Of a stretch of 64,000 bases of DNA, positions 2,294-48,578 are shown one piece after another. The DNA lies in NCBI GenBank assembly GCA_964384035.1, contig CAYLIB010000001.1:48532-112531 (forward strand). The letters run 5' to 3'. How positions within the stretch are numbered: position 1 is the first letter of the stretch; every line of letters starts with the position of its first letter. A model generated the notes under the pieces. It was not told the origin of the DNA, did no database searches, and was given only the letters and a program-made list of their open reading frames with translations. A program made the position numbers and the translations under genes. This DNA comes from an uncultured Candidatus Saccharibacteria bacterium. GTDB taxonomy: Bacteria; Patescibacteriota; Doudnabacteria; UBA920.

Positions 2294-2938
2294 CTAGCCA
2301 GTGAAATTTTTGCAAAACGTTTTTCTATGAAAGTTTGTTAATCCTAATTTTAAGATTGCATCTATGTGTTTCTTAGTTCCATAACCTTTGTTTTCTTCCC
2401 AAAAATATCTCGGGAAACATTCTGAAAGTTTCTTCATTAAGTTATCTCTATATACCTTTGCAATAATCGAGGCACAAGCTATTTCAAAAACCTTAGAATC
2501 CCCTTTCACAACAGAACGTGCGTTATAGGAAATATTACCGGGTACAAATTTACCATCAAACAACACCAAGGTTTTATTAATTTCTATATCACCATCACTC
2601 AAAATACTTTTCGCACATTCATTCATACTCTCCAAAACAGCGTTGTGAATATTTATTTCATCTATCCTAGCAGGCGTTGTTTCTAAAATTATATATTTTG
2701 CAGCTGTATTTATAATTTCTTTTGAAAGAATTTCGCGTTTACACTCGCGCAATGCCTTACTGTCTTTAACTTCACTCTTCCACGACTCACGTGCAGCGGT
2801 GGTGTGATTCACGTTGAACACCACCGCTGCAACCACTAAGGGCCCAGCCAAACTCCCCCTTCCTACTTCATCCACCCCCACAACCCATTCCACCGACTCC
2901 GGAATCTCATACTTTAACAACCTATTTTTTTTATTCAT
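2294..2938 (-). CDS. rnhB: ribonuclease HII
   Basis: The 'GVDEVGRGSLAGPLVVAAVV' signature of RNase HII is near the N-terminus. Confidence 0.85.
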   Translation of the reverse strand: MNKKNRLLKYEIPESVEWVVGVDEVGRGSLAGPLVVAAVVFNVNHTTAARESWKSEVKDSKALRECKREILSKEIINTAAKYIILETTPARIDEINIHNAVLESMNECAKSILSDGDIEINKTLVLFDGKFVPGNISYNARSVVKGDSKVFEIACASIIAKVYRDNLMKKLSECFPRYFWEENKGYGTKKHIDAILKLGLTNFHRKTFCKNFTG

Positions 2939-2957
2939 GTAATTTATTCTTAATTTA

Positions 2958-3190
2958 GAGCTCCCAAATTACTTGTTCACCTTATCCGTAATAAAAAGGA
3001 TTCGAAGAGTCTTTTTATTACATAGAGAAAAGCAATTTGGAATAGAGGAAGATTTAATAGAGAGTGCAGTAGCCAGTTTTGCATAAGGCGTGATAGTAAC
3101 TGGCTTTGCCAGTAACAGATCATGTCAAACTGGTTACAAAGCTCGGAGACAAATCTAACGTGCGTAGGAGGACCTAATGAGGGTGAAAAA
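2958..3190 (+). repeat. R1 structured repeat, copy A (slightly degenerate)
   Basis: 'gagctcccaaattacttg', then a hairpin with a GAAGA loop, then 'aaagcaatttgga', then an AGTT/AACT hairpin. Same order as copies at 17641 and 25191. Confidence 0.6.
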
Positions 3191-5099: not shown

Positions 5100-5410
5100 A
5101 CTAATTCCTCCTCTATCATGGATCCAAATTATAATCTAACCAAACAAAAACCTCTATTGTTAAAATAGAAGCTTTTACTTGGTCGAATCACTGGAATCTT
5201 TAATAAGCAAGATCAAAATCTACCCAATATCACTTAACTTCACTGAAATGAAACATCCTATTTCACAATATATAAACAACCACACCTTCTTCGAAACGCA
5301 CTTTATATTTCTCAATCTTTCTGAATTAGGTCACCCTTTTTTAACACTCTTGACTTCTAATGGGTGGGTGCTAAAGTTAAGTTTATTTTACCAACAAGAA
5401 GGAGCAAAAC

Positions 5411-5827
5411 ATGGAGCTATCAACCTTACAAAACCTTATTTCTGCACTTCCAGATACACTTTTAACCGAATTAGTTATCAGGCTACGTCTTGATTCAGAA
5501 ATTTCCCTGGGGAAATCATCAAATTCAGAAATTTCTGCTCATTTAGTAGCCCACTTAAATCGTAGAAATCAAATATCTTTACTAACCGAAGCAATTACCG
5601 GACTCGCCCCTGGACTATTCACATATTCTTCTGGTGAAGAGATTCTTAATAGAAGAAATTTTCTTGCGGGAGAGATCACAAAAAAATTAAACGCTACAAA
5701 AATTTCTAGCTTGGCAGAAACTTTCATTTTCAGAAAATATATACCTAGAAATACCAGTGGCAACCTCATCCCATATCTAGTCTGCCATTTAGCAATCGTC
5801 TTAGAAAAAGAACAAGAACTTTCGTAA
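5411..5827 (+). CDS. hypothetical protein
   Basis: 138-aa ORF with no motif. The overlapping 5179..5493 ORF is the alternative. Confidence 0.3.
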   Translation: MELSTLQNLISALPDTLLTELVIRLRLDSEISLGKSSNSEISAHLVAHLNRRNQISLLTEAITGLAPGLFTYSSGEEILNRRNFLAGEITKKLNATKISSLAETFIFRKYIPRNTSGNLIPYLVCHLAIVLEKEQELS

Positions 5828-10831: not shown

Positions 10832-10995
10832 CCCCATTGCTCGGGGTTTTTAGTTGCCAAAACACGCGCTTTTAGGTATATTTAGAAAGTTATAAATAAA
10901 TTCCCTCGAATTTACTCATCCTTCTTATATTGAATTTATGCGATTCAAAATATAGCTTTTTCTCGATCCGGGTCCCCCGAGCCGAAAAAAATCAA

Positions 10996-11083
10996 CGGAA
11001 AGGGTGAGTAATGAGAGAAGCCTTAAAGGAATCAGGGTCTCCCTGTCCCTACTTAAGTGGAAAACCATATTTTCCCTCTCATA
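10996..11083 (+). promoter_or_regulatory. conserved leader motif 'cggaaagggtgagtaatgagag' with hairpin (atgagaggg.../...ccctctcat) upstream of infB
   Basis: The same 22-nt motif and hairpin recur at 21590-21635. Here the hairpin is interrupted by a 45-nt insert. Confidence 0.45.
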
Positions 11084-14580: not shown

Positions 14581-15066
14581 ATGAAAAGAGAATATTTTAT
14601 AAACCCACAAACAGAAAGAAAACTTATCCAAGCAGAGGAAAGAGGAGAAAAAAATGAACAAAGAGCATTTGATCTAGCTTTAAATCTAACCAACATACTA
14701 AAAGAAAAATATCCACAAATAGTCCTTTTTGCTTACTGCACAAGATCAGAAACTTACTCCAGAAAAGATAGAAAAGGAGAAGATATAAGAATACGTATAG
14801 AATCGGTAGCAGGGGGTAATACAAAAGAACATGGATACATTGTGTATGACGTAAAAAGTTCTGATTATGGAGCAAATCTCAAAAATACTGCTGATGCGAA
14901 ATTCAGTTCATACGTAAATGCAAAAAGGAAGGCTGGAAATATTAAAAATGCTAGATTATCAAAAACCCTGGTAGTTAACGAAAATAGAACTGATTATGAA
15001 ATCCAGGAACAAATACTAAAGGACCTAAAAGAAGTAAACTTATTACCAGATTCCATAGATCTATAG
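14581..15066 (+). CDS. hypothetical protein
   Basis: 161-aa ORF followed by a terminator hairpin at 15088-15116. Confidence 0.4.
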   Translation: MKREYFINPQTERKLIQAEERGEKNEQRAFDLALNLTNILKEKYPQIVLFAYCTRSETYSRKDRKGEDIRIRIESVAGGNTKEHGYIVYDVKSSDYGANLKNTADAKFSSYVNAKRKAGNIKNARLSKTLVVNENRTDYEIQEQILKDLKEVNLLPDSIDL

Positions 15067-15115
15067 GAAATCCACTTTTCCCAAAAGAAAACACCCAATT
15101 ATGGGTGTTTTCTTT

Positions 15116-15189
15116 TGGAGCGGCTAACGGGAATCGAACCCGTGTCCCTTCCTTGGCAAGGAAGAGTTCTACCATTGAACCATAGCCGC
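15116..15189 (-). tRNA. tRNA-Gly(GCC)
   Basis: Minus-strand fold. Acceptor GCGGCTA/TAGCCGC, anticodon loop TTGCCAA, T-arm ACGGGTTCGATTCCCGT, CCA encoded. Confidence 0.8.
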
Positions 15190-15216
15190 ACAATCTAAAA
15201 CTTATTTTACTACATC

Positions 15217-15353
15217 ATTCACGAGCGAAGCAATGTGAATGCGCCAACCAAAAGTAGCTCGCTACTTTTGAAAGGGACAACAAGGTAAACGAAGTGTAGT
15301 CTTTATGGAGCGAAAGCGTAATAAAGACGTAACGCAGTGAGCCTTGGTTGGCC
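15217..15353 (+). repeat. R2 tRNA-cluster spacer repeat, unit 1
   Basis: ATTCAC-gagcgaagcaat-GTGAAT hairpin, then a second hairpin (caaaagtagc/gctacttttg), then the core 'gaaagggacaacaagg..aacgaagtgtagtctttatggagcgaaagcgtaataaagacgtaacg.agtgagccttggttggcc'. Confidence 0.7.
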
Positions 15354-15358
15354 TGTGG

Positions 15359-15433
15359 TGGTGCCTCGGCTCAGAATCGAACTGAGTACGCAAGCCTCTT
15401 CAGGGCTTCGCTCTACCAATGAGCTACCGAGGC
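15359..15433 (-). tRNA. tRNA-Phe(GAA)
   Basis: Acceptor GCCTCGG/CCGAGGC, anticodon loop CTGAAGA, CCA encoded. Confidence 0.8.
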
Positions 15434-15473
15434 GCTTCTATATTCACGAGCGCAGCAATGTGAACCATTTATC

Positions 15474-15549
15474 TGGTGGACGCTACAGGACTCGAACCTG
15501 TGACATCTTCGGTGTAAACGAAGCGCTCTACCAACTGAGCTAAGCGTCC
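15474..15549 (-). tRNA. tRNA-Val(UAC)
   Basis: Acceptor GGACGCT/AGCGTCC, anticodon loop TTTACAC, CCA encoded. A truncated R2 hairpin at 15442-15472 sits just 3' of it. Confidence 0.8.
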
Positions 15550-15575
15550 ATACATATATTATAACTGAGACTATG

Positions 15576-15716
15576 ATTCACGAGCGCAGCAATGTGAATG
15601 TTTTTTGGGTCCCCGGCCACTCGTGGCTGGGGAGAGGGACAACAAGGTGAACGTAGTGTAAGGTTTATGAAGCGTAAGCGCAATAAAGACGTAACGTAGT
15701 GAAGAAAACTAGACCT
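15576..15716 (+). repeat. R2 spacer repeat, unit 2 (divergent)
   Basis: Same ATTCAC...GTGAAT hairpin. The second hairpin is replaced by ccccggccactcgtggctgggg. The core 'gagagggacaacaaggtgaacgtagtgta...aataaagacgtaacgtagtga' is retained. Confidence 0.65.
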
Positions 15717-15718
15717 TT

Positions 15719-15855
15719 ATTCACGAGCGAAGCAATGTGAATGCGCTAACCAAATGTAACTGGTTACATTTGAAAGGGACAACAAGGAGAACGAAGTGTA
15801 GTCTTTATGGAGCGAAAGCGTAATAAAGACGTAACGTAGTGAGCCTTGATTGGCC
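15719..15855 (+). repeat. R2 spacer repeat, unit 3
   Basis: About 90% identical to unit 1. Its second hairpin (caaatgtaac/gttacatttg) has compensatory changes relative to unit 1. Confidence 0.7.
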
Positions 15856-15857
15856 CG

Positions 15858-15942
15858 TGGTGCCCGAGGAGGGACTCGAACCCTCAAGCCTTACGGCATA
15901 CGCACCTCAAGCGTACGCGTATACCAATTCCGCCACCCGGGC
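15858..15942 (-). tRNA. tRNA-Leu(GAG), type II
   Basis: Acceptor GCCCGGG/CTCGGGC, anticodon loop TTGAGGT, long variable arm, CCA encoded. Confidence 0.75.
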
Positions 15943-16249
15943 ATAGATACCTTTTACTAAATGAGGAAAAACTAAACGCTTCGTTATTTTAACAAAGTCA
16001 TAAAAAAAAATCTAGCTTATTTACGCACATTGATCTTCCGCTGTTTTCAGAGGAAAAAAATAAAAATCCCCTTATTTAAGAGCTAAAACGGTAAAACAGG
16101 CTTGTTTTTGACCCTAAAATCTGCTATACTAGACATAGAACGTGCTAAATGGCACGCTCTTTTAATTCCCGAATTTGGATACAGAAACATATATCTGGAT
16201 ACAAATTCCTAACATTAACCCAAAAGGGATATAGGATTACTATCATAAA

Positions 16250-17620: not shown

Positions 17621-17640
17621 TGAGACCCCTGAGATTCTCA

Positions 17641-17805
17641 GGGCTCCCAAATTACTTGCTTACCTATGAGTTTGTTTGAAAAAACCCGAAGAGGGATTTT
17701 TCAAAAAACAAAGAAAGAAGCAATTTGGGACAAGGAGAACTTGACGGAGAGTGCAGCTGTTAGTTCTGCACCGAACTGACAGCGGAGCTCGTAGACAAGT
17801 TGGAC
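17641..17805 (+). repeat. R1 structured repeat, copy B, between tRNA-Cys and tRNA-Leu
   Basis: 'gggctcccaaattacttg', a GAAGA-loop hairpin (gaaaaaaccc/gggatttttc), 'aaagaagcaatttggga' pairing back to the 5' end, 'ggagagtgcag', an AGTT/AACT hairpin, then 'cggagctcg...ggac'. Confidence 0.65.
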
Positions 17806-17807
17806 GC

Positions 17808-17894
17808 GCCCAGGTGGCGGAACTGGTATACGCTACGGACTTAAAATCCGTCGCCCGCAAGGGATTGAGGGTTCGATTCCCTCCCTGGGCACCA
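17808..17894 (+). tRNA. tRNA-Leu(UAA), type II
   Basis: Acceptor GCCCAGG/CCTGGGC, anticodon loop CTTAAAA, long variable arm, T-arm GAGGGTTCGATTCCCTC, CCA encoded. Confidence 0.8.
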
Positions 17895-18283
17895 CTAAAA
17901 ACACGTTGATAAAGTTAGCGTGTTTTTTAGTTAGTACATTTTCAAAACAAGGGAATCGAACCTTCGCGTTAGCGAAAACTTTAGGGAGTGAACCCATGCT
18001 CTGCTGGGTGAACACATCTGGGCTGGTTCACCAGATCCAGATTTAATAGCCAACCCTCCCTGGGCACCACAAAAAACATGCTAATTAAGTTAGCGTGTTT
18101 TTTTGTTTAAATAAGAATAGGCAAATTGGGGAATCGAACCTGAGCGAAGCGAAATCTTTAGGGAGTTTGAATCCAGCTTTGCTGGTTCAAACGTTCGGCG
18201 CAAGCCTGCGAAGTCGCCGATATATAGCCATCCCTCCCTGGGCACCACAAAAAACACGTTCTATATATGAACGTGTTTTTTAG
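17895..18283 (+). repeat. tandem array of two extra copies of the tRNA-Leu 3' end, each followed by a terminator hairpin and a ~160-nt paralogous spacer
   Basis: 'ccctccctgggcacca' occurs at 17879-17894 inside the tRNA and again at 18054-18069 and 18232-18247. Terminator hairpins at 17897-17927, 18071-18105 and 18249-18281 differ in their loops. The spacers begin 'gggaatcgaacc', an inverted T-arm. Confidence 0.65.
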
Positions 18284-18527
18284 TAATATGATGTACCCGG
18301 AGAAAACCTTAATTACATCATCATAAAACAGGTGAAAAATGGTTTAACCGGCGGAACCCAAAACGCGCGTCTTGAATTCCATATAAAACCTTCTTCCCGA
18401 ATACAAGGTGGAAGTTGGGACCATGGTAAGTCAGGCAAAGGGACAACCCAGCCAATCGATTAGCAGACAACCCAAACAAGGTCGTTTTTTATTTGGCAAC
18501 AACTGCATATACGTTTAAACTAAACTT

Positions 18528-21421: not shown

Positions 21422-21557
21422 ACTCAAACATACCGTAAAAGTGACGGTATTTTTTATTGCCTAATCCCCCATAAAAAAGTACAATACATAGGTACTTTTA
21501 ATAATTTATTAGCGGTTTTTTCTTCTCTTTTTGCCTTCCAAAGATGTAGCATTTCTA

Positions 21558-21635
21558 GGATCCGGCTTTGCCGGGCATAGAAATAACAGCGGAAAGGGTG
21601 AGTAATGAGAGGGAAAACCATGTTTTCCCTCTCAT
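21558..21635 (+). promoter_or_regulatory. upstream motif 'ggatccggctttgccgg', then leader motif 'cggaaagggtgagtaatgagag' with a perfect 13-bp hairpin ending at the start codon
   Basis: atgagagggaaaa-ccatg-ttttccctctcat abuts ATG 21636. The 22-nt motif is shared with the infB leader. 'tccggctttgccgg' also occurs at 31373-31386. Confidence 0.45.
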
Positions 21636-25061: not shown

Positions 25062-25191
25062 TAGCGGCAAAGCCGCGAGAAGGGAGGCTCGAATCTGGCT
25101 CTGCCAGTTCGAGGGGCGACGCAAGCCCCCTTAGTAGCAAGTCATGAGATTAGACGATGGCGATAGCGTAGCAAGCGTTACTGTCATTTAG
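25062..25191 (+). repeat. 5' module (homolog of 17442-17545) followed by a second, synonymously recoded copy of the last 15 gyrA codons
   Basis: 25144-25191 'atgagattagacgatggcgatagcgtagcaagcgttactgtcatttag' encodes [15 protein letters not shown]. This is identical in peptide to gyrA 25014-25061. Nine of the 16 codons (including the stop) are synonymously changed. Confidence 0.7.
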
Positions 25192-25380
25192 GGGTCCTAA
25201 ATTACTTGCTTACATATTAGTTTTAGAACAAAGCGCGAAGAGCGCTTTTTTCTAAAACATAGAAAGAAGCAATTTGGGAAGAGGAGAACTTTATGGAGAC
25301 TGCAGTAATTAGTTTTATATCAAACTAATTACGGAGGTCGAAATAAAGTGGGACGAGTAAGTGTGACTGTTATCTAAAAC
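25191..25380 (+). repeat. R1 structured repeat, copy C
   Basis: 'ggggtcctaaattacttg', a GAAG-loop hairpin (agcgc/gcgct), 'aaagaagcaatttggga', 'ggagactgcag', an AGTTT/AAACT hairpin (gtaattagttt/aaactaattac), then 'cggaggtcg...ggac'. Confidence 0.65.
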
Positions 25381-26916: not shown

Positions 26917-28248
26917 ATGACAGGAACAAATCTGAACTCGCTTCTCAGCGAGTTTAAAAGACTAGCAGGAAACAACTTCCAACTTTTTACAAACCGATAT
27001 TTCCAAGCGAGGTCGGGAGGAGAATTCGTTCTCCCTTACGAAGCCATTCTTGAACACTTTGGCCTGAACCCCAAACTAGTTTCTGGCCAAACCTACATAA
27101 TCATATGCGATGCTTTCCGTGACTTAGACGACGAGAAGACTATCATTCTCATGAAAGCACTAATTGAATGCGAAGCCGAGCTCGCTGTCGTGGTCACAAA
27201 TCTAAACAGCGCGCTCGACCGGGCGTGCGGAGTTAAAGGATTACTAAGACTACTGGATCTGGGTTTTGTACCAGTAGGAGTAGGTACTGACGGCTCCAAC
27301 GAAGCGGTACCTTTCCATTTCGAAAGGACAGTACCTTTTGCAGTGCCCGCATACCAAGTAAACCCAGACGGTCAAGGCCTAATAATTAACACACTCACTT
27401 CCGCTAAGCCAAAAAGTGTAAGTGTATTACTAATCTCCTCACTTCGTGATATGGACATCATATTAGAAGAAAACAACTCCCTCTGCCGCGATCGGATAAA
27501 CCGAATTACCTTAATGGCGGGGGTAAAAATCGCAAATGGTAAACCAGAGTTGCTAAATGGCTTACTTCAAGCAGACATAAAGACTAACGGCGTAGGTGGT
27601 GCATCAAACTGCAATTTTGATACAGCTGCTAGCACAAGACTGTATCGGAACGCTCAAAAGCTCGAAATTCCTACTACAACTCTCACAAGAGTAACCGCGG
27701 GTGAAGTTAAGTTACCGTTTAGTATCTTCGATATTTGGGCTACTACAGGCCACCCAGCCGCCTCACGCCTCAAAGACGGTCAATCCCTTAGTTTCAATAA
27801 CTTACGCCTGGCTTGCCTTGAAGGCGAAGGCGGATCGCACCGAGTAGCCCTTGAACTCGCACTAGACCGAGACATAAACTGGTTCATCTATAAGGCATTT
27901 TTCAGAAACGCTCCAAAAGAAATACAGGAGCAAATTCTGAACCTGCCGTTACATGAATCTGTCTGGCCCATAGCCGCCGACTACGGCGAGCTTATGCCCT
28001 ACGACCCACTGGCACTACTCGCAAGCATAGAAGGCAACTCGCTGTTTAACTATCACTCCACAGTGGTAGGCGGAGCTGTTCACAAGGTGGTAGGTATAGA
28101 CGCCCAAAACACCGGCGCCCTAGACCCACTTTCCTTAAGAATGCTTCTGTTCATAGCCACAACAGAAGTACTCATAAGAACATCCAACCACGCCAAACGG
28201 GAGTTCCTGACCATCAAACGCGAACGCCTAGAAGCAAAAACTACCTAA
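26917..28248 (+). CDS. hypothetical protein (443 aa) with anomalously high GC
   Basis: Uninterrupted ORF. Sampled 60-nt blocks run 58-62% GC against about 35-40% in flanking genes. 'ICDAFRDLDDEKT' weakly resembles an aspartate-cluster motif of nucleoside hydrolases. Confidence 0.45.
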   Translation: MTGTNLNSLLSEFKRLAGNNFQLFTNRYFQARSGGEFVLPYEAILEHFGLNPKLVSGQTYIIICDAFRDLDDEKTIILMKALIECEAELAVVVTNLNSALDRACGVKGLLRLLDLGFVPVGVGTDGSNEAVPFHFERTVPFAVPAYQVNPDGQGLIINTLTSAKPKSVSVLLISSLRDMDIILEENNSLCRDRINRITLMAGVKIANGKPELLNGLLQADIKTNGVGGASNCNFDTAASTRLYRNAQKLEIPTTTLTRVTAGEVKLPFSIFDIWATTGHPAASRLKDGQSLSFNNLRLACLEGEGGSHRVALELALDRDINWFIYKAFFRNAPKEIQEQILNLPLHESVWPIAADYGELMPYDPLALLASIEGNSLFNYHSTVVGGAVHKVVGIDAQNTGALDPLSLRMLLFIATTEVLIRTSNHAKREFLTIKRERLEAKTT

Positions 28249-28309
28249 CTCCAAGACCCGAAGCGGTCTTTTTTATTTCAAAAAGACACCTTTTTGGGTG
28301 TCTTTTTAT

Positions 28310-28445
28310 ATTCACGAACCAAGCAATGTGAATCTATAACGGGGCCCCCGGGCACTCGTGACTGGGGAGAGGGACAACACGGGGCCACCAAATAACTCGA
28401 CCACACATTGTTTAAAAAAGATTCGAAGAGTCTTTTTTAACATAG
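28310..28445 (+). repeat. partial R2 unit (ATTCAC...GTGAAT hairpin + 'ggggagagggacaaca') followed by a degenerate R1 5' part with GAAGA-loop hairpin
   Basis: 'attcacgaaccaagcaatgtgaat...ccccgggcactcgtgactggggagagggacaacac', then 'ccaccaaataactcg...aaaaaagattcgaagagtctttttt'. Two terminator hairpins lie at 28254-28311. Confidence 0.5.
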
Positions 28446-28588
28446 CGGTGAGATATTTGGTATCAGGTTAATCCCTCACCGGATTCACTCAGGGGAGGGT
28501 GCTAATCTCGGGAAAAGCGGGAGCAAGGCGAACATGAGTTTGGACGGGATTACTTCCCGTACAGACTCGCGTGAACCTTGCTCACGCT

Positions 28589-28665
28589 TGGTGGGCGCAC
28601 TAGGACTCGAACCTAGGACCCTCGAGGTATAAGCTCGATGCTCTAACCAACTGAGCTATGCGCCC
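28589..28665 (-). tRNA. tRNA-Ile(UAU)
   Basis: Acceptor GGGCGCA/TGCGCCC, D-arm AGCTCAGTTGGTTAGAGC, anticodon stem TCGAG/CTCGA with loop CTTATAC, CCA encoded. Confidence 0.6.
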
Positions 28666-28875
28666 AAAATACTAACCTACCAATTATAGGAAAGTTCCAG
28701 CATCTTGAAAAGACCTCCGATAAACATATTCAAAGAATAATAAAGTTATCCCCTGTTGTGCATAAACTGTGCACAACTACCCATTTTTCTGTGGGTAGAA
28801 CAAGGATGAAACATGTAAAACCCAAAATTCCCTTTTTCTATCAACTCCTCTATTCTTTATCTGGATGTTTTTACG

Positions 28876-28934
28876 GATTGCAGATTTGGAAATAGATCAT
28901 TGCTATAAGTAGCATCGCCCAAATATGCGATCCC
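28876..28934 (+). repeat. R3 element copy 1 (short) with 'gattgcagattt' and 'aaatatgcgatccc' termini
   Basis: It ends 21 nt before the purF-like start. An AAGGAGG RBS follows. Confidence 0.5.
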
Positions 28935-28955
28935 GTTTTCAAAAGGAGGAGATTT

Positions 28956-30227
28956 ATGGCAGGAATCTTTGGAATATTTAACCATAACGAAGCAAGTAAC
29001 TTTGCATACCTTGGATGTTATGCCATGCAACAACGTGGTACCAAACAATCAGGTATTGTAAGTTCCGATGAAAACAAACTTTACTCTTTTCATAGTCAGG
29101 GCCTCATAAAAAAATCAGTAAGCGAAGAAACAATCAGACGATTAAAAGGTAAACACGCAATTGCCCAGATAGATCACAAAAGTGGATTAGCACTTCCTTA
29201 CAAATTCAAACACGCCAGCGTAGGAGAAATTGCAGTATGTTTAGACTCGAACCAAAATCAACCTGTTTCATTGTTTAGTCTCTTAGGTAACAACGAACTT
29301 GAAAGTCTCATTCTTAGCAGTCTTCAATATCTAGACTTTAGCTCCGAAGAAACGCTTAGAATGAGTTTGAATGGTGTAAACAAAACGTTCATCGCACTTA
29401 ATAAGAACAAAATGCTAGTTTCGAGAGATCCTTGGGGAAATAGACCTCTAATTTTAGGAAAACTAGGCAAATCCATCTTGGTTAGCACTGAGTCAATATC
29501 CTTCGACCTGCTAGGGGCAGAAATAATACGAGAAGTAGAACCAGGAGAAGTAATTCTTATTACTGACACCTCATTTATCTCTCTTCTAAAAAGGCCTTCC
29601 GAGAACCTTCTTAAGTGCTCTTTTGAACACGTTTATTTCTCAAGACCCGACTCCATTATTTTTGACCAGAGCGTAAACAAAAGCCGTCACAAATGGGGAA
29701 AAATACTAGCAAAGGAACACCCTGTCGAAAAGGATTGTATCACATTAGGAGTACCTGACTCTGGGGTACCAGTAGCAGTAGGATTCTCCCAAGGATCAAA
29801 CACAAACTACTTAAATGGAATAATTCGCAACCGATACGTAGGAAAAATGGAAAGCAATGCTACGTTAAGCCCAAGTAGAGTCCGTACGAAGTTCAACGTA
29901 GACAGATCGTTAATTGAGGGACAAAAAGTTGCTTTACTAGACGATTCATTACTTGGAGGAGAAGTGGCTAGACTTCTAGTTCAGATGCTAAAAGACGCTG
30001 GAGCAATTGAAGTCCACGTTAGGATAGCGTGTCCACCCATTCTTTCCACTTGCCAATTTGGACAAGGCATCTCCAATCAAGGTGTTCTTATCGCCAAGAC
30101 CCATTCATTCGGAGAGATACTCAAACACCTCAAAGCAGATTCACTAGGATTCCTAAGTATGGAAAGTTTTCTCTCTGTGTTTCACTCCAAACAAAATTTT
30201 TGTACCGAATGTATGCGTCGAAGCTAG
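28956..30227 (+). CDS. amidophosphoribosyltransferase (PurF)-like protein with the N-terminal nucleophile Cys replaced by Ala
   Basis: 'MAGIFGIF...LGCYAMQQRGTKQSGIV' aligns with the PurF 'MCGIVGI...HRGQDAAGI' N-terminus. 'EHVYFSRPDS' and the PRTase motif 'VALLDDSLLGGEV' are present, as is a C-terminal CxxC. Confidence 0.7.
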   Translation: MAGIFGIFNHNEASNFAYLGCYAMQQRGTKQSGIVSSDENKLYSFHSQGLIKKSVSEETIRRLKGKHAIAQIDHKSGLALPYKFKHASVGEIAVCLDSNQNQPVSLFSLLGNNELESLILSSLQYLDFSSEETLRMSLNGVNKTFIALNKNKMLVSRDPWGNRPLILGKLGKSILVSTESISFDLLGAEIIREVEPGEVILITDTSFISLLKRPSENLLKCSFEHVYFSRPDSIIFDQSVNKSRHKWGKILAKEHPVEKDCITLGVPDSGVPVAVGFSQGSNTNYLNGIIRNRYVGKMESNATLSPSRVRTKFNVDRSLIEGQKVALLDDSLLGGEVARLLVQMLKDAGAIEVHVRIACPPILSTCQFGQGISNQGVLIAKTHSFGEILKHLKADSLGFLSMESFLSVFHSKQNFCTECMRRS

Positions 30228-32177: not shown

Positions 32178-32204
32178 AAAAAAACGCCCAAGGCGTTTTT
32201 TTTG
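32176..32204 (+). terminator. rho-independent terminator after yebC
   Basis: aaaaaaaaacgcccaaggcgtttttttt. Confidence 0.6.
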
Positions 32205-32282
32205 TCTTAATCGTCATTCTCTATTCGTCATTCTTCATTCGTTATGCTTTATTCTTAATTCGTTATTCGCTATTCTTCATTC

Positions 32283-32747
32283 ATGATTATATTAGGACTG
32301 GATCCAGGTACTGCCACAACAGGTTTTGCCATAATCCAAAGAGAAAAAAACTTTCCTCTGAAAATTCTGGAACTTGGAGTTATTTCCACTAGTCCCAAAA
32401 AAACCGATGCTGAAAGACTCTGTGAATTGGCGGAAGATATTGAAGCCCTTCTACTAAAATATAAACCGGACAAAGTAGGAATAGAAAAGCTATATTTTGA
32501 AACCAACCAAAAAACCGCCATGACAGTAAGCCAAGCCCGTGGTGTCTTGCTTTACTTGCTTACAAAATACAAAATACCAACTCTCGAACTCACTCCACTT
32601 CAAGTAAAAAGTCGCACTACCGGTTTCGGCAAAGCAGACAAAAAACAAATGCAAACAGCTGTTAAATTACTATTTAAACTAAAAACAATCCCCAAACCCG
32701 ACGACGCCGCCGACGCCCTAGCTATCGCTTTTTGTGTAAGTTTGTAA
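32283..32747 (+). CDS. ruvC: crossover junction endodeoxyribonuclease RuvC
   Basis: 'MIILGLDPGTATTGFAIIQ' N-terminus and 'DAADALAIAF' near the C-terminus. Confidence 0.85.
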   Translation: MIILGLDPGTATTGFAIIQREKNFPLKILELGVISTSPKKTDAERLCELAEDIEALLLKYKPDKVGIEKLYFETNQKTAMTVSQARGVLLYLLTKYKIPTLELTPLQVKSRTTGFGKADKKQMQTAVKLLFKLKTIPKPDDAADALAIAFCVSL

Positions 32748-32806
32748 ATGCTTGCTCCTCAAATAAATCTTTGATAATATTTGCTTAATATTATTAATAC
32801 AAATAA

Positions 32807-41068: not shown

Positions 41069-41302
41069 TTAAACTACAGGATCTACTTCTGGTTTTGCAA
41101 AAGGATTACACTTAATAATTCGTTTCACCGACATTAGCATACCTATCACAAAACCCTTCTTCACCACAGCTTGTTTAGCATATTCACTACAAGAAGGGTA
41201 AAATCTACAAAAACCATAAGGATATCTGGCTCTAAAGATACCATGATCCGGCGACAGCGTCTTCTGATATATATTTATTAATAAAATAATAATCGTCTTC
41301 AT
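41069..41302 (-). CDS. yidD: membrane protein insertion efficiency factor YidD
   Basis: 'YQKTLSPDHG...CRFYPSCSEYAKQAV...KRIIKCNPF'. Confidence 0.8.
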   Translation of the reverse strand: MKTIIILLINIYQKTLSPDHGIFRARYPYGFCRFYPSCSEYAKQAVVKKGFVIGMLMSVKRIIKCNPFAKPEVDPVV

Positions 41303-41333
41303 TCTCTATTCGTTATTCTTCATTCACCACTCT

Positions 41334-41672
41334 TCACTTTATTAACTTTACAAACTTTAAAAACTTTATAAACTCACTAGCTATAGCTTTGTCATATATC
41401 TCCATTGCTTTTGGTTTTACTGTAAAAATATAGTCACCATACGCAAATCTCTCCAAATTATCCCTTATAACTACCCTGACTATCCTTTTCATTCTGTTTC
41501 TCACAACAGCCTTCTTGGATACCTTGGTAGAGACAACGACTGTAAATCTTTTAGCTGAACTTTCTGTTTTTTTAAATTTAGCCATAAAAAAAGGACTAAA
41601 AAAAGCCCGCCCCCTAGCAAAGGTAGCTTGAACTTCCCTTGTTTTTTGGAGACGATGCTTTTCAGGTAGCAT
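41334..41672 (-). CDS. rnpA: ribonuclease P protein component
   Basis: 'LPEKHRLQKTREVQATFARGR' N-terminus plus the conserved position after rpmH. Confidence 0.8.
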   Translation of the reverse strand: MLPEKHRLQKTREVQATFARGRAFFSPFFMAKFKKTESSAKRFTVVVSTKVSKKAVVRNRMKRIVRVVIRDNLERFAYGDYIFTVKPKAMEIYDKAIASEFIKFLKFVKLIK

Positions 41673-45031: not shown

Positions 45032-46156
45032 ATGTTTCAAAAGTTAAAAAGCAAACAAATAATTAAAGTTTCCAAAATTGTTGTAGCAGCACTTGTCCTT
45101 GGTATATTTGGTCTCCAACCCGCACCCGTAAACGCTGCTTCACTAACAACTGTAAAAGATACCCTTACCAGAATCGAACAAGCCCAAACCGCAGACCATA
45201 CAATAACATTTACACTCCCAGGTGGAGCCTCAAGCTTCGTAGCTGGCGATAAAATGTCCATTGACTTCCCAGCAAACTTCGTAACCTCAACGGGCTGGGC
45301 AACCTCAGATTTCACCTTTAACGACGGTACTTCAAGAACCATAACCACAGTAGGCACCAACTCTACTCCTACCTGTACGGCTGGTACTAATAATGTTTCT
45401 GTAGAAATTACAACAGCAAGCGACCTATTTGTAATTACCGCCTGTTCTACCTTCACAGCAAACTCATCAGCCAACATTACATTCACCATTCAAGGTACTG
45501 GCGCTAACGGAACCCTCACGAACCCTTCTTCTCCTGAGACTTCCGTAGTGGCAATAGTAGGTGATGATAAAGGAAACGGGTTCGGTTCAGACGACGACAC
45601 CGCTTCCCTAGCTATCCCAATCATCGCAGACGATACAGTTACAATTACAGCTACCGTGGACCCAACTATTACCTTCTCAATATCAGATACAGCTATTTCA
45701 TTTGGAACCCTGTCTTCGGGAGCTGCGCGGTACGCTACTGGAGACGGAACCAGTACATCTACTGACCCCTCTGGTGGTGCTCACAACCTACAAATCTCTA
45801 CCAATGCCACCAGCGGTTACATCGTTACTTACAAAGGTGCAACACTAACCAGCGGAGCTAACACTATCGATGTTCCAGGTACATTCATAAACAACGACGC
45901 CAACGGTACTCCAGGACAAGAAGAATTCGCTCTTTCTGTAAACAGACAAACCGGTACCGGTACGGTTGCCGCCAACTACCAATACACCGACCCAGACTGG
46001 GACTTCGACGCCAACACTACCACTACCATTTACACCCAAACCGCAGCAACCAACACTGAAACTCTAGAAATTCACTACCTCGCTAATATAGCTGGCGCTA
46101 CTCAAGCTGGCACCTACACCACAGACGTTACTTACATAGCTACTGGAACGTTCTAA
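45032..46156 (+). CDS. secreted beta-rich surface protein, paralog 1
   Basis: Signal peptide with AxA site (PVNA/AS). T/S/G/N-rich. C-terminus '...GTYTTDVTYIATGTF'. The last 565 nt are identical to 47946-48510. Confidence 0.55.
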   Translation: MFQKLKSKQIIKVSKIVVAALVLGIFGLQPAPVNAASLTTVKDTLTRIEQAQTADHTITFTLPGGASSFVAGDKMSIDFPANFVTSTGWATSDFTFNDGTSRTITTVGTNSTPTCTAGTNNVSVEITTASDLFVITACSTFTANSSANITFTIQGTGANGTLTNPSSPETSVVAIVGDDKGNGFGSDDDTASLAIPIIADDTVTITATVDPTITFSISDTAISFGTLSSGAARYATGDGTSTSTDPSGGAHNLQISTNATSGYIVTYKGATLTSGANTIDVPGTFINNDANGTPGQEEFALSVNRQTGTGTVAANYQYTDPDWDFDANTTTTIYTQTAATNTETLEIHYLANIAGATQAGTYTTDVTYIATGTF

Positions 46157-46164
46157 ATACATTC

Positions 46165-46190
46165 AAAACCGCCCATAAGGGCGGTTTTAT
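46165..46190 (+). terminator. rho-independent terminator
   Basis: aaaaccgcccataagggcggttttatt. Confidence 0.55.
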
Positions 46191-46233
46191 TATTCCTCAT
46201 GTTATAATTCCCTTAGAATATTTTACTTAACCA

Positions 46234-47295
46234 ATGCCTAGCTCTAAATTCTTCGTTATTCGTATATTCTCTCTATTCGTTATTCTCTATTCGTTACTCT
46301 TCATTCCACGCGAAGCTAGCGCCCTTACCATATCTCCTCCCAGATTAGAGACCTCGGCAGACCCAGGTCAAACAATAGAACAAGAAGTAAAAATCATCAA
46401 TGAAGAAAGATCCTCACGAACACTCTATATTGTTCCTCAAAACTTTGAAGCCAAAGACGAAAGCGGAGAACCAAATTACGTCGAAGGCACAGAAAACCTA
46501 GCCGGTTGGATAAAAGTAGCAAAATCAGTAAATCTCGGACCAGGTGAAGAAAAATTTGTAAAATTTTCTATTTCGGTTCCACCCACTGCTGAACCTGGTG
46601 GATATTTTACAGCTCTATTCTTCCAAAGTGAACCCCCTAGCTTTGAACAAGGTGCTGGTATTGGTATAGGTAGCCAGTTAGGAAGTTTAATTCTTTTAAA
46701 AGTTAATGGTGCTATAGGAGAGCAAGCGGGTATACTCGAATTTGCTACTAAAAACAAAGATCGCACTTTCTTAAATCTACCTATAGAATTCTACTACCGT
46801 TTCCAAAACACAGGAGACACGTGGGTTAAACCTTTAGGTGAAGTCTTTATAACAAACACATTCGGAAAAAGAGTAAAACTCCTTACAGCGAACAGGCAAA
46901 AAGGAAATGTGCTACCCAAAAGCATTCGCAAATTCGAAACTGCATGGTTAAATAGCGGTGGAAATATAAAGGAAGACCCAAAAGGTGAAATTGAATACCC
47001 AAAACTAGAAGATTTCTGGGCAAATGTAAAATATCAATATAGCAATTTCGCTTTCGGACTCTACACTGCCAAACTCCATTTAGCTTACGGCACAAATCCT
47101 GTGCAGGTAGGAGAAACAACTTTCAAATTTATCGTATTTCCTTGGCAGCTCACATTAGTAAGTACCATTCTCGCCATAATTATCTTAATTATTCTGAGAA
47201 TACTTATTAAAAAATACAATCAAAGTATTATTAGAAAAGCCCAAAATCAAATTCAAAGTAAAGACAACCCTACTTCCAAACGAGGTAAAAAATAA
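46234..47295 (+). CDS. CscA/DUF916-DUF3324-like cell-surface protein with C-terminal TM anchor
   Basis: Signal peptide, 'ALTISPPRLETSADPGQTIEQEVKIIN', C-terminal TM with K/R tail (WQLTLVSTILAIIILIILRILIKKYN). Confidence 0.45.
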   Translation: MPSSKFFVIRIFSLFVILYSLLFIPREASALTISPPRLETSADPGQTIEQEVKIINEERSSRTLYIVPQNFEAKDESGEPNYVEGTENLAGWIKVAKSVNLGPGEEKFVKFSISVPPTAEPGGYFTALFFQSEPPSFEQGAGIGIGSQLGSLILLKVNGAIGEQAGILEFATKNKDRTFLNLPIEFYYRFQNTGDTWVKPLGEVFITNTFGKRVKLLTANRQKGNVLPKSIRKFETAWLNSGGNIKEDPKGEIEYPKLEDFWANVKYQYSNFAFGLYTAKLHLAYGTNPVQVGETTFKFIVFPWQLTLVSTILAIIILIILRILIKKYNQSIIRKAQNQIQSKDNPTSKRGKK

Positions 47296-47390
47296 AATAT
47301 AAAAAACACCAAATAGTTCTTTGGTGTTTTTTAAAAATTAAAAAATAATTTTATGTTATACTTTTTCTATAAAACAACTTTATAAATTCC

Positions 47391-48509
47391 ATGTTAAAGC
47401 TTCTAAACAAAAATCAAAAAATAACAAAGTTAGTTATCACTGCATTAATCCTCAGCGTGTTTGGTCTCCAACCTTCACCCGTAAACGCTGCTTCACTAAC
47501 AACTGTAAAAGACACCCTTACCAGAATCGAACAAGCCCAAACCGCAGACCATACAGTACAATGGACATTACCCGGCGGCGCATCTAGTTTCGTTGCTGGA
47601 GATAAGGCAAGAGTAGATTTCCCGGCAAACTTTGTTACTAGTACAGAATCGGGTTGGGTAGCCGGAGACTTCACGTACAACGATGGTACCTCAAGAACTA
47701 TTGTAGCAGTGGGAGCATCACCGTCATGTTCTGCAGGTGCCAACAATATTACTGTCCAAATAGACTCTGCTAATGACCAATTTATTATCACAGCCTGCGC
47801 TTCCTTTACCGCTAACTCCTCAGCTAATGTTTCATTTACTATAGACGGAACCACAACAGACGGAACCCTTACAAATCCTTCTTCCCCAGAAACATCCGTG
47901 GTAGCTATCGTCGGTGACGATCAGGGCGACGGCTTCGGAAGCAATGACGACACCGCTTCCCTAGCTATCCCAATCATCGCAGACGATACAGTTACAATTA
48001 CAGCTACCGTGGACCCAACTATTACCTTCTCAATATCAGATACAGCTATTTCATTTGGAACCCTGTCTTCGGGAGCTGCGCGGTACGCTACTGGAGACGG
48101 AACCAGTACATCTACTGACCCCTCTGGTGGTGCTCACAACCTACAAATCTCTACCAATGCCACCAGCGGTTACATCGTTACTTACAAAGGTGCAACACTA
48201 ACCAGCGGAGCTAACACTATCGATGTTCCAGGTACATTCATAAACAACGACGCCAACGGTACTCCAGGACAAGAAGAATTCGCTCTTTCTGTAAACAGAC
48301 AAACCGGTACCGGTACGGTTGCCGCCAACTACCAATACACCGACCCAGACTGGGACTTCGACGCCAACACTACCACTACCATTTACACCCAAACCGCAGC
48401 AACCAACACTGAAACTCTAGAAATTCACTACCTCGCTAATATAGCTGGCGCTACTCAAGCTGGCACCTACACCACAGACGTTACTTACATAGCTACTGGA
48501 ACGTTCTAA
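47391..48509 (+). CDS. secreted beta-rich surface protein, paralog 2
   Basis: N-terminal half is about 60% identical to paralog 1. The C-terminal 188 aa are identical. Confidence 0.55.
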   Translation: MLKLLNKNQKITKLVITALILSVFGLQPSPVNAASLTTVKDTLTRIEQAQTADHTVQWTLPGGASSFVAGDKARVDFPANFVTSTESGWVAGDFTYNDGTSRTIVAVGASPSCSAGANNITVQIDSANDQFIITACASFTANSSANVSFTIDGTTTDGTLTNPSSPETSVVAIVGDDQGDGFGSNDDTASLAIPIIADDTVTITATVDPTITFSISDTAISFGTLSSGAARYATGDGTSTSTDPSGGAHNLQISTNATSGYIVTYKGATLTSGANTIDVPGTFINNDANGTPGQEEFALSVNRQTGTGTVAANYQYTDPDWDFDANTTTTIYTQTAATNTETLEIHYLANIAGATQAGTYTTDVTYIATGTF

Positions 48510-48578
48510 AAAAACTAAAAGAGCTTTTGCTTAATGCAAAAGCTCTTTTGTTTTATTTCTACGTGTTAAAATAATCTT

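What the first reader, a model, noticed from the sequence alone, without database searches (positions are those of the whole stretch)
15116..15942. R2: ~135-nt structured spacer repeats interleaved with a tRNA-Gly/Phe/Val/Leu cluster
Three full units at 15217, 15576 and 15719 and two partial ones at 15442 and 28310 each begin with the hairpin ATTCAC-g.a.c.aagcaat-GTGAAT. A second hairpin follows whose sequence differs in every copy but stays self-complementary (caaaagtagc/gctacttttg; caaatgtaac/gttacatttg; ccccggcc/ggctgggg; cccgggcac/gtgactgggg). This is covariation. A conserved core 'ga(a/g)agggacaacaagg..aacg.agtgta...aataaagacgtaacg.agtga' follows. The units fill the gaps between four tRNA genes of different identity. 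They are therefore not by-products of tRNA gene duplication. Possible roles are a pre-tRNA processing or spacer RNA, a small ncRNA family, or a MITE with a structured transposase-binding end.
Basis: seen in the sequence. Interest (0 to 1): 0.7.

Follow-up and report, generated by a model that had tools for sequence, protein, structure and literature searches.

The report
Three-hairpin repeat abutting tRNA gene ends
A small candidate-phylum bacterium (Saccharibacteria/TM7) carries a previously undescribed family of about 140-base, three-hairpin repeats that sit tail-to-tail against the 3' ends of tRNA genes, fold on the strand opposite the tRNA, and come and go between sister species; the repeats are real and structurally constrained, but their role is not established.

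Summary
The window holds three full ~140-nt units (15217, 15576, 15719), a lone first hairpin (15442) and a long rearranged copy (28310-28588). No match was found in Rfam, phage or plasmid collections.

I recovered seven more full copies from a sister species (~89% identical DNA) and from elsewhere in the same genome.

Across 10 full units, 95% of cells pair and 24 of 44 base pairs show double (compensatory) changes. No shuffle out of 500 reached these values. The "conserved core" is a long imperfect hairpin, so each unit is three hairpins in series.

- The tRNA genes lie on the other strand. Each unit ends 0-4 nt from the complement of the tRNA's CCA.
- G·U pairs (21 against 4), purine-rich loops and folding energies all point to the strand antisense to the tRNAs as the one that folds.
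- One copy follows ruvC rather than a tRNA, and the window has the empty site there.
- Unit 15576 is a mosaic that the sister species lacks.
- Copies are homogenised within each genome.

**Best reading (about 0.4):** a non-autonomous mobile or recombining structured repeat, recognised in single-stranded form, that prefers tRNA 3' flanks.

**Rivals:** an antisense ncRNA, or a pre-tRNA spacer RNA.

It is a new family. Interest is moderate.

The parts
15217..15358 (+). Unit u1. P0 hairpin 15217-15240, P2 hairpin 15249-15270, rod hairpin 15274-15354. It ends 4 nt from the complement of the tRNA-Phe CCA.
   Evidence: It is 97.9% identical to its ortholog L006 696-837, while third codon positions nearby are 64-76% identical.
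15576..15718 (+). Unit u2, a mosaic and partly broken copy. Its GC-rich P2 (15611-15632) resembles that of the 28310 copy. Its P4 arms come from two subtypes and mismatch, and the outer rod stem has no partner.
   Evidence: The sister species lacks it, and the breakpoints of the 143-bp difference fall within P0 on both sides.
15719..15857 (+). Unit u3. P0 15719-15742, P2 15751-15772, rod 15776-15856. It ends 1 nt from the complement of the tRNA-Leu(gag) CCA.
   Evidence: Its ortholog L006 1055-1192 is 82% identical and carries compensatory swaps in two helices.
15442..15465 (+). Solo P0 hairpin (3' arm GTGAAC) in the 40-nt Val-Phe spacer.
   Evidence: The spacer is 40/40 identical in the sister species.
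28310..28588 (+). Long, rearranged copy. P0 28310-28333, a P2 hairpin next to it, and the 5' half of the rod stem at 28370-28382. A ~100-nt insert follows, including a piece of a second repeat family. A diverged rod (about 28515-28588) abuts the tRNA-Ile CCA.
   Evidence: Covariance-model hits of 30.4 and 24.7 bits. Fold z-score -7.3. The ortholog L078 7418-7556 is a compact 139-nt unit. The shared piece of the second family is shown.
15116..15189 (-). tRNA-Gly(GCC), last gene of the cluster.
15359..15433 (-). tRNA-Phe(GAA). Its CCA is followed on its own strand by CCA-CAGGCCAACC, the complement of the end of u1.
15474..15549 (-). tRNA-Val(UAC).
15858..15942 (-). tRNA-Leu(GAG). Its CCA is followed on its own strand by CGGGCCAATC, the complement of the end of u3.
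28589..28665 (-). tRNA-Ile(UAU), abutted by the long copy.
32745..32750 (+). Empty site. Directly after the ruvC stop codon, the sister species carries a ~191-nt insert that contains a full unit (L078 12041-12180).

Best explanation
R2 is a lineage-restricted family of ~140-nt interspersed elements in one Saccharibacteria (TM7) genus.

**Architecture.** Each unit is three hairpins in series on one fixed strand.
- P0 has a 6-7 bp stem that can change sequence and a conserved loop, AGCGNAGCAA.
- P2 is 9-10 bp and free in sequence.
- The third hairpin is an ~80-nt imperfect 'rod'. Its outer stem is GGG-A-CAA-C.../...G-TTG-G-CCC. Both arms carry ACGNAGTG, which gives symmetric purine-rich internal loops. 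It has an inner stem, P4, and a capped mini-hairpin.

**Position.** The folding strand is antisense to the neighbouring tRNA gene. The rod ends 0-4 nt from the complement of the tRNA's encoded CCA.

**Most likely mechanism.** I think it is a small non-autonomous mobile or recombining repeat, in the manner of REPIN, PATE or BOX elements. Its single-stranded form would be recognised by a protein encoded elsewhere. It lodges preferentially in the 3' flank of tRNA genes, and its copies exchange segments by recombination.

**Shown:** the structure, the covariation, the folding strand, the tail-to-tail position, presence/absence differences between species, mosaicism, and within-genome homogenisation.

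**Inferred:** that it moves, that the active form is single-stranded DNA rather than a transcript, and the existence of a partner enzyme.
For: **Structure under constraint**
- 10 full units are 95.4% paired, and 24 of 44 pairs have changes on both sides. 0 of 500 shuffles reached this, and slid-partner controls give 25-45% pairing.
- The P0 stem is replaced while its loop is kept in L078 12041.
- In that same copy, tandem G·A positions in the rod are replaced by Watson-Crick pairs.

**Folding strand**
- G·U pairs valid only on the + strand number 21 cells in 7 pairs. A·C cells number 4, and all fall in mosaic or misaligned spots.
- Unpaired bases on the + strand are A237, G153, T81, C55, which runs against the window's negative GC skew.
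- The consensus fold is -44.7 kcal/mol on + against -33.3 on -. The + strand is also better with DNA parameters.
- The folding strand does not follow local transcription. It is antisense to the tRNA operons. At the Leu(tag) locus it is opposite to ftsH, and the 25 nt between P0 and the ftsH ATG leave no room for a promoter. After ruvC it is the sense strand.

**Turnover**
- u2 is present in the window and absent in the sister species, with P0-to-P0 breakpoints.
- A ~191-nt insert with a unit follows ruvC in the sister species, and the window has the empty site.
- A piece of a second repeat family is nested inside the 28310 copy.
- u2 is a mosaic of subtypes.
- The window genome has P4 type GTC/GAC at three loci, whereas the sister has AGG/CCT at both Leu loci. 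P2 sequences are swapped between the two Leu loci.

**Orientation and databases**
- All copies in the window, and all on the sister's 77-kb contig, lie on one strand.
- No match in Rfam, phages or plasmids.
Against: - No transposase, HUH nuclease, TnpB, IS110-type or other recombinase was found in the ~64 kb window or the ~60 kb of related loci examined.
- There are no terminal inverted repeats. The only candidate target duplication is TAA, possibly extended, in an A-rich context.
- The sequence left of P0 is not conserved, so an IS200/IS605-type target is not evident.
- Copy number is low. The exact 19-nt core occurs at 3 sites in the one other genome that has it.
- Four of six loci are occupied in both species, so most insertions are old. 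Even so, nearly every copy keeps 41-42 of 44 pairs. That pattern fits host-level selection as well as it fits gene conversion.
- u1 is 97.9% identical between species against 64-76% at third codon positions. A purely selfish relic would not be expected to stay this similar. A recent recombination tract (354/359 identical from u1 to tRNA-Val) is an alternative explanation I cannot exclude.
Confidence: 0.4

Rival explanations
1. An independently expressed structured non-coding RNA read from the + strand, antisense to the tRNA operons. It would be a multi-copy small RNA, or a scaffold RNA whose 3' continuation is complementary to the tRNA 3' end, and it would act through its conserved purine-rich loops as a protein- or RNA-binding platform.
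For: - The + strand is the folding strand.
- GNRA-type caps (GAAA, GUAA, GAUA), tandem G·A positions and A/G-rich loops are typical of structured RNAs.
- Covariation is strong.
- u1 is highly conserved.
- At the ruvC locus the + strand is the transcribed strand.
- A weak -10-like hexamer overlaps the left edge of P0 in several copies, and there is one promoter-like hit at 28283-28312.
Against: - No conserved promoter lies upstream. The 27 nt before u1 is the least conserved segment, at 78%.
- Two copies start 2-3 nt after a + strand terminator.
- A start site placed by the -10-like hexamers would fall inside P0.
- No terminator follows the unit, so transcription would run straight into the antisense tRNA.
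- Three of four orthologous pairs diverge quickly.
- No Rfam family matches.
Confidence: 0.25
2. A pre-tRNA spacer or 3' trailer RNA on the tRNA (minus) strand. It would be co-transcribed with the tRNAs and released by RNase P at the next tRNA plus an endonuclease (for example RNase III on the rod) after the CCA. It would serve in processing or as a stable by-product RNA, comparable to the E. coli 3'ETS-leuZ or tyrT-rtT RNAs or the T4 species 1 and 2 RNAs. These comparisons are from my own knowledge.
For: - The minus strand is certainly transcribed at the tRNA loci, and the rod starts 0-4 nt after the CCA.
- The minus strand still folds significantly for u1 and u3, with z-scores of about -3.6.
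- u1 and the Val-Phe spacer are highly conserved.
- An RNase III gene exists in this genome.
- At the Leu(tag) locus the unit lies between the tRNA and ftsH on the same transcribed strand.
Against: - G·U pairs and loop composition favour the other strand: 21 against 4 cells, and loops on the minus strand would be 74% pyrimidine.
- The minus-strand consensus energy is 11 kcal/mol worse.
- The ruvC copy is not in a tRNA transcript, and its minus strand has no evident transcription.
- Units are absent after five of the ten tRNA genes in the window.
- The sister species manages with one unit fewer.
Confidence: 0.15
3. A retron-type or otherwise reverse-transcriptase-linked RNA. The unit would be an msr-msd-like template (short hairpins plus a long msd hairpin) or an element copied by the reverse transcriptase found near one copy.
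For: - In the sister species, copy L018 4447-4588 lies on the same strand as a type VI retron and about 730 nt upstream of its small-protein ORF (about 970 nt upstream of the HTH gene). The retron hits are HTH_VI at 3e-22 and RT_VI at 5e-59.
- The layout of short hairpins followed by a long hairpin resembles msr-msd.
- A 9-bp inverted repeat, GCCAACCAA/TTGGTTGGC, exists in u1.
Against: - Type VI retrons carry their msr-msd inside a ~470-nt hybrid RNA directly upstream of, and including, the small-protein ORF (bioRxiv 10.1101/2025.10.22.683967).
- L018 has such a small ORF (5315-5530) and its own long hairpin at about 5160-5250. The R2 unit lies outside that region.
- The a1/a2-like repeat is perfect only in u1 and its ortholog, and it shows mismatches rather than covariation in the other copies. 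The competing rod stem does covary.
- No other copy has a reverse transcriptase nearby.
Confidence: 0.03
4. Repeated spacer DNA with no function, spread by unequal recombination among tRNA loci and kept similar only by gene conversion.
For: - Mosaic copies and within-genome homogenisation.
- Narrow taxonomic range.
Against: - Pairing is kept at 95% through complete sequence replacement of P2, P4, part of the rod and even the P0 stem. Gene conversion alone does not create compensatory variants.
- One copy is at a non-tRNA site.
- u1 is far more conserved than silent sites.
Confidence: 0.07

Closest known systems
REP / REPIN elements mobilised by RAYT (HUH Y1) transposases
   Same: Short extragenic repeats. 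Their single-stranded hairpin form is what matters and is preserved by compensatory change. They have no terminal inverted repeats in the classical sense and are non-autonomous. (From my own knowledge.)
   Different: REPINs are a single symmetric hairpin made of two inverted REPs, and usually number tens to hundreds of copies flanking a RAYT gene. R2 has three different hairpins, few copies, a preference for tRNA 3' ends, and no RAYT in about 120 kb examined.
IS200/IS605-derived PATEs and TnpB omega-RNA-bearing ends
   Same: Strand-specific elements with subterminal hairpins, moved as single-stranded DNA, with no inverted repeats and no target duplication. A structured RNA scaffold at the right end is followed by flanking sequence. 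(From my own knowledge.)
   Different: They need a conserved 4-5 nt target immediately left of the element. The left flanks of R2 are not conserved. No TnpA or TnpB was found, and no Rfam omega-RNA-type family matches.
BOX, RUP and Correia elements of streptococci and Neisseria
   Same: Modular 100-150-nt intergenic repeats that fold into stable stem-loops. They vary in module content, form mosaics and can lie within transcripts. (From my own knowledge.)
   Different: Correia and RUP have terminal inverted repeats and a TA duplication. BOX has a boxA-B-C module order and a high copy number. None is tied to tRNA 3' ends. There is no sequence similarity, since nothing was found in Rfam.
E. coli tyrT-rtT repeats, 3'ETS-leuZ, and phage T4 species 1 and 2 RNAs (RNAs embedded in tRNA transcription units)
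   Same: Repeated or structured sequence directly after or between tRNA genes. (From my own knowledge.)
   Different: Those act, or at least exist, as RNA of the tRNA strand. R2 folds on the opposite strand, and one copy is away from any tRNA. Rfam holds rtT, and it did not match.
Type VI retron hybrid RNA (Retron-Vpa2; bioRxiv 10.1101/2025.10.22.683967)
   Same: A multi-arm structured RNA with direct repeats in its loops. A type VI retron lies near one R2 copy.
   Different: The hybrid RNA is ~470 nt, includes the small-protein ORF and is single-copy next to the HTH-RT genes. R2 is 140 nt, dispersed, and lies outside the retron transcript region.

Membership tests
Any Rfam 15 RNA family | Covariance-model match at the gathering score, or at least a suggestive E-value | tested here: not met
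   Only tRNAs pass in the window. With E up to 10 over 15000-16100, nothing covers the units. Nothing was found at L018 or at 28200-29000.
Classical MITE | Terminal inverted repeats | tested here: not met
   All inverted repeats found are internal (P0, P2, P4, rod). The termini, ATTCAC... and ...GGCCCG, are not complementary.
Classical MITE | Target-site duplication flanking the insert | tested here: inconclusive
   The occupied and empty ruvC sites show TAA, possibly TAAAAATAA, at both junctions, but the context is A-rich and the sequences are 11% diverged.
Classical MITE | A related autonomous IS with the same ends in the genome | not testable with these tools
   Only about 120 kb of the two genomes could be read, and no transposase was found in it.
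REP/REPIN-RAYT | RAYT (Y1 HUH) gene flanked by the repeats | tested here: not met
   No Y1_Tnp-type hit among the ORFs scanned. The whole genome was not available.
REP/REPIN-RAYT | High copy number of a short imperfect palindrome | tested here: not met
   The window has five P0 copies in 64 kb. The one other genome with the element has three exact core hits.
IS200/IS605 PATE / omega-RNA end | Conserved 4-5 nt target immediately 5' of the left end | tested here: not met
   The left flanks differ: CATC, CAAG, TATG, CTAT, TTAT, TAAA, TTAA, and TCAA before a TTTCAC variant of P0.
IS200/IS605 PATE / omega-RNA end | TnpA and/or TnpB encoded in the genome | not testable with these tools
   None in the DNA examined.
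tRNA-operon spacer/trailer RNA (rtT-like, 3'ETS-like) | Functional structure on the tRNA-coding strand | tested here: not met
   Strand-diagnostic pairs are 21 G·U on the antisense strand against 4 A·C. The consensus energy is -44.7 against -33.3 kcal/mol.
tRNA-operon spacer/trailer RNA (rtT-like, 3'ETS-like) | Always within a tRNA transcription unit | tested here: not met
   The L078 12041-12180 copy lies between ruvC and a small ORF, with no tRNA in that locus apart from tRNA-Ile about 4.4 kb away.
Retron msr-msd ncRNA | Single copy directly upstream of its RT operon, closed by covarying a1/a2 repeats | tested here: not met
   It is multi-copy. Only one copy is near a reverse transcriptase, and that one lies about 730 nt upstream of the small-protein ORF and outside the expected hybrid-RNA region. 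The a1/a2-like pairing does not covary.
Small protein-coding gene | A conserved ORF with a start codon in all copies | tested here: not met
   One minus-strand frame is open in five units, but it has no start codon within the unit and carries stops in L006b and u2. The substitutions are compensatory in stems.

The most novel reading that the evidence does not exclude
The units could be scaffold RNAs of an unrecognised RNA-guided system. The three-hairpin + strand RNA runs without a break into sequence complementary to the 3' acceptor end of a tRNA gene, in the scaffold-then-guide layout of TnpB omega-RNAs. A nuclease or recombinase encoded elsewhere could then be guided to tRNA gene ends. Cutting empty sites and repairing them from occupied ones would explain the tail-to-tail position, the within-genome homogenisation and the insertion polymorphism.
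Probability: 0.05. Interest if true: 0.85.

Novelty: new variant of a known kind. Interest (0 to 1): 0.45.

Why it matters
Saccharibacteria have tiny genomes with little spare DNA, yet this lineage keeps a structurally constrained, strand-specific repeat pressed against tRNA gene ends.

If the element is mobile, it would be a rare example of a small structured repeat with tRNA-end preference in the candidate phyla radiation. It would also point to an unidentified enzyme that acts on single strands.

If it is an RNA, it would be a new ncRNA class antisense to tRNA operons.

In either case the covariance model built here gives a direct handle for surveying TM7 genomes and metatranscriptomes. The narrow known range, one genus and two species, limits how broadly it matters for now.

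Tried and rejected
**Database and collection searches**
- Rfam, at gathering threshold and at E up to 10 around four loci, gave nothing.
- Sensitive blastn (11-base words) of u1 against phage and plasmid collections gave nothing.
- Exact-pattern scans of viral contigs gave 0 hits.
- The P0 pattern gave 0 hits in metagenome contigs.
- The core pattern gave 40 metagenome loci and 27 genome loci. Only three of these, all in one Saccharibacteria MAG, were real by covariance model. The rest were chance matches.

**Reaching more distant relatives through flanking proteins**
- The 161-aa neighbour has one homolog.
- Relatives at 60-70% identity for the DHH protein and Ddl have lost synteny and carry no tRNA or unit.
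- Contigs of closer strains break before the repeat region.
- Extending the window 10 kb to the left found no copy.

**Hypotheses rejected**
- Small ORF in the unit.
- P0 as a sigma-70 promoter for the downstream tRNA. There is one weak hit, and the -10 positions are inconsistent.
- The multibranch model closed by GCCAACC/GGTTGGC. It shows mismatches and no covariation, whereas the rod stem covaries.
- The 45 nt right of the ruvC copy as a tRNA fragment. Its alignment score is below the shuffle median.
- The L018 flank as a tRNA-Gly 3' fragment. The T-arm pattern is suggestive, but the score is not significant.
- A retron ncRNA.
- TIGR arrays, which surfaced in a literature search. The repeat period and size are wrong.

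**Literature.** Searches found nothing on tRNA-linked repeats in Saccharibacteria.
Full report
**What is in the window.** Between 15116 and 15942 ARAGORN and Rfam find tRNA-Gly(GCC), Phe(GAA), Val(UAC) and Leu(GAG), all on the minus strand. On the plus strand the gaps hold three ~140-nt units at 15217-15358 (u1), 15576-15718 (u2) and 15719-15857 (u3). A lone first hairpin sits at 15442-15465. A further copy begins at 28310. The diagnostic strings occur far more often than chance allows. The same arrangement appears in two independent JGI assemblies.

**Organism and relatives.** The neighbouring genes are ordinary chromosomal genes: infB, rbfA, a DHH phosphoesterase, ddl, S1, gyrA, ruvC and tyrS. 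An exact scan of one genome per species found the 19-nt core only in one MAG, an uncultured Candidatus Saccharibacteria (CAYSUI01), at three sites. All other genome and metagenome hits were chance matches by covariance model. That MAG is a sister species, with about 88-89% DNA identity. From it and from other contigs of the window's own genome I recovered the following copies:
- L006 696-837 and 1055-1192, the syntenic cluster.
- L018 4447-4588.
- L019 3417-3556, at tRNA-Leu(UAG).
- L078 7418-7556, at tRNA-Ile.
- L078 12041-12180, after ruvC.
- L083 4836-4975, the window genome's own copy at tRNA-Leu(UAG).

More distant relatives, at 60-70% protein identity, have lost synteny and show no copy.

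**Architecture.** RNAalifold on seven units, and later a model-based alignment of ten, give three hairpins in series.
- P0 is ATTCAC(G)-AGCGNAGCAA-(T)GTGAAT.
- P2 is 9-10 bp with a four-base loop.
- The third hairpin is a long imperfect 'rod'. Its outer stem is GGG-A-CAA-C-AAGG pairing with CCTT-G-R-TTG-G-CCC. Both arms carry ACGNAGTG, which gives symmetric G/A-rich internal loops. It has an inner stem P4 and a GC-closed cap (GAAA, GUAA, GAUA or GAAU).

On the ten units 95.4% of cells pair, and 24 of 44 pairs have changes on both sides. None of 500 shuffles reached these values. Sliding the partners drops pairing to 25-45%. That alignment was fitted to the model and so leans towards the structure, but the MAFFT alignment of seven units gave the same picture: 95.8% paired and 13 pairs with double changes.

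Specific replacements include:
- P2 fully replaced (AT-rich against GC-rich).
- P4 changed from GTC/GAC to AGG/CCT.
- The inner rod stem changed from AAGG/CCTT to TTGG/CCAA, ATGA/TCAT or CGAGCC/GGCTCG.
- In L078 12041, the P0 stem replaced while its loop is kept, and tandem G·A positions turned into A-U pairs.

An alternative closing stem (GCCAACC/GGTTGGC) is perfect only in u1 and its ortholog and does not covary, so I rejected it.

**Which strand folds.** In the ten-unit alignment, pairs that are valid only on the plus strand (G·U) number 21 cells in 7 pairs. Cells that would be G·U only on the minus strand (A·C) number 4, and all lie in u2's mosaic parts or at alignment shifts. Unpaired positions on the plus strand are 74% purine (A237, G153, T81, C55), although the window's plus strand is generally poorer in G than in C. 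Consensus energy is -44.7 kcal/mol on plus against -33.3 on minus. Single-sequence folds favour plus with both RNA and DNA parameters. The folding strand is therefore antisense to the adjacent tRNA genes.

**Position.** At Phe, Leu(GAG), Leu(UAG) and Ile, in both species, the last paired base of the rod lies 0-4 nt from TGG, the complement of the tRNA's encoded CCA. L018 abuts a sequence that resembles a decayed tRNA 3' part, but the similarity is not significant. L078 12041 lies directly after the ruvC stop codon with no tRNA nearby, and the window has the empty site at 32747/32748. On the other side, P0 begins 2-3 nt after a terminator-like hairpin at two loci. At the Leu(UAG) locus P0 lies about 25 nt from the ftsH start codon.

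**Evolution.**
- Third codon positions of neighbouring genes are 64-76% identical between the two species.
- u1 is 139/142 identical to its ortholog, and the Val-Phe spacer with the solo P0 is 40/40. The 27 nt next to u1 are only 78% identical. This suggests purifying selection. However, the whole tract from u1 to tRNA-Val is 354/359 identical, so a recent recombination tract between species cannot be excluded.
- The other orthologous pairs differ strongly while each keeps its pairing. These are u3 against L006b (82%), the two Ile copies, and the two Leu(UAG) copies.
- Subtypes follow the genome rather than the locus. The window genome has GTC/GAC P4 at three loci, whereas the sister has AGG/CCT at both Leu loci, at Ile and at ruvC.
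- The P2 of the sister's Leu(UAG) copy equals the P2 of the window's Leu(GAG) copy.
- u2 is missing from the sister species, with both breakpoints inside P0. It is a mosaic with a broken P4 and no outer rod partner.
- The window's Ile copy carries an extra ~100-150 nt relative to the sister's compact unit, including a piece of a second repeat family.

These are signs of turnover, recombination between copies and nesting.

**Interpretation.** A pre-tRNA spacer RNA would fold on the tRNA strand and would always lie in tRNA transcripts. Both expectations fail.

An independent plus-strand RNA gene fits the folding strand and the RNA-like loops. Against it, I found no conserved promoter, two copies start just behind terminators, and nothing terminates the unit before the antisense tRNA.

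A small non-autonomous element whose single-stranded form is recognised would explain several things. These are a folding strand that ignores local transcription, the constant orientation of all copies on a contig, presence/absence differences, mosaics and homogenisation. It lacks terminal inverted repeats, a clear target duplication and, so far, any partner enzyme. I rank it first at about 0.4, the antisense RNA at 0.25 and the spacer RNA at 0.15.

From my own knowledge, the P0 loop core GCGAAGC and the rod cap GCGAAAGC are the two classic very stable DNA mini-hairpin sequences. This is compatible with a DNA-level fold but does not prove one.

**A lead that did not hold.** Near the L018 copy, on the same strand, lies a type VI retron with a small ORF, HTH_VI and RT_VI. 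Published work places the type VI template inside a ~470-nt hybrid RNA directly upstream of, and including, the small ORF (bioRxiv 10.1101/2025.10.22.683967). L018 has its own long hairpin there. The R2 unit lies about 730 nt upstream of that small ORF (about 970 nt upstream of the HTH gene), and the other copies have no reverse transcriptase nearby. The retron is most likely a neighbour in a small island next to a tRNA-like remnant and the tmRNA gene.

**Verdict.** This is a real, structurally constrained, previously undescribed repeat family, known so far from one Saccharibacteria genus. It is not in Rfam and is not a classical MITE. The most interesting facts are the tail-to-tail contact with tRNA CCA ends and folding on the antisense strand. 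Its function is unresolved, and strand-specific transcript data plus a genus-wide model search would decide it.

Noticed in passing
window 17621-17807, 25165-25360, 2932-3090; fragment at about 28400-28450: A second plus-strand repeat family of about 170 nt. It has an A-run, a hairpin with a CGAAGAG loop and a T-run, then AACATAGA...GCAATTTGG and a conserved GAGAGTGCAG block. One copy fills the gap between tRNA-Cys and tRNA-Leu(UAA), and a piece is nested in the long R2 copy.
   Followed up: partly
window 17871-17931, 18046-18106, 18224-18284: After tRNA-Leu(UAA) there are two extra ~175-nt tandem units. Each ends in the last 16 nt of that tRNA (CCCTCCCTGGGCACCA) plus a terminator hairpin, and each starts with GGGAATCGAACC, which looks like an antisense T-arm. 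This recalls the E. coli tyrT/rtT repeats.
   Followed up: no
window 32195-32293, 41290-41357, 46257-46317, 49793-49856: Short arrays with a 7-nt period (ATTCGTC, ATTCTCT, ATTCACC) in intergenic regions just upstream of genes.
   Followed up: no
window 28589-28665: A tRNA-Ile with anticodon UAU, present in both species. This is an uncommon way for bacteria to read AUA.
   Followed up: no
window 28666-28880: The intergenic stretch between tRNA-Ile and a purF-like gene is about 99% identical between the two species, while ORFs are about 89% identical. No Rfam match. It may be a conserved leader or promoter region.
   Followed up: partly
L018 5315-6826: A type VI retron in a Saccharibacteria MAG: a 71-aa small ORF with a hydrophobic C-terminus, HTH_VI and RT_VI. 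It has its own long hairpin at about 5160-5250. It lies between a tRNA-like 3' remnant and a GIY-YIG-like ORF plus the tmRNA gene.
   Followed up: partly
window 10947-11017 and 21541-21611: A 70-nt leader, 75% identical between the two copies (...GGATCCGG...AACGGAAAGGGTGAGTAATGAGAG), precedes infB and a metallo-beta-lactamase-fold gene.
   Followed up: no
window, whole: Eight of ten tRNA genes are on the minus strand, while 33 of 40 long ORFs are on the plus strand. GC skew of the plus strand is negative throughout and AT skew is mostly positive. The replication direction cannot be read simply from these signals.
   Followed up: no
L078 10265-10639: The sister species has a PF05635 ('23S rRNA intervening sequence protein', Avd-like four-helix bundle) gene between the methylase and yebC. 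The window has only about 100 nt there.
   Followed up: no
window 45032-51891 and 52608-63047: An array of six paralogous ~350-370-aa ORFs with no Pfam scan run on them, followed by a 3479-aa ORF with internal repeats.
   Followed up: no
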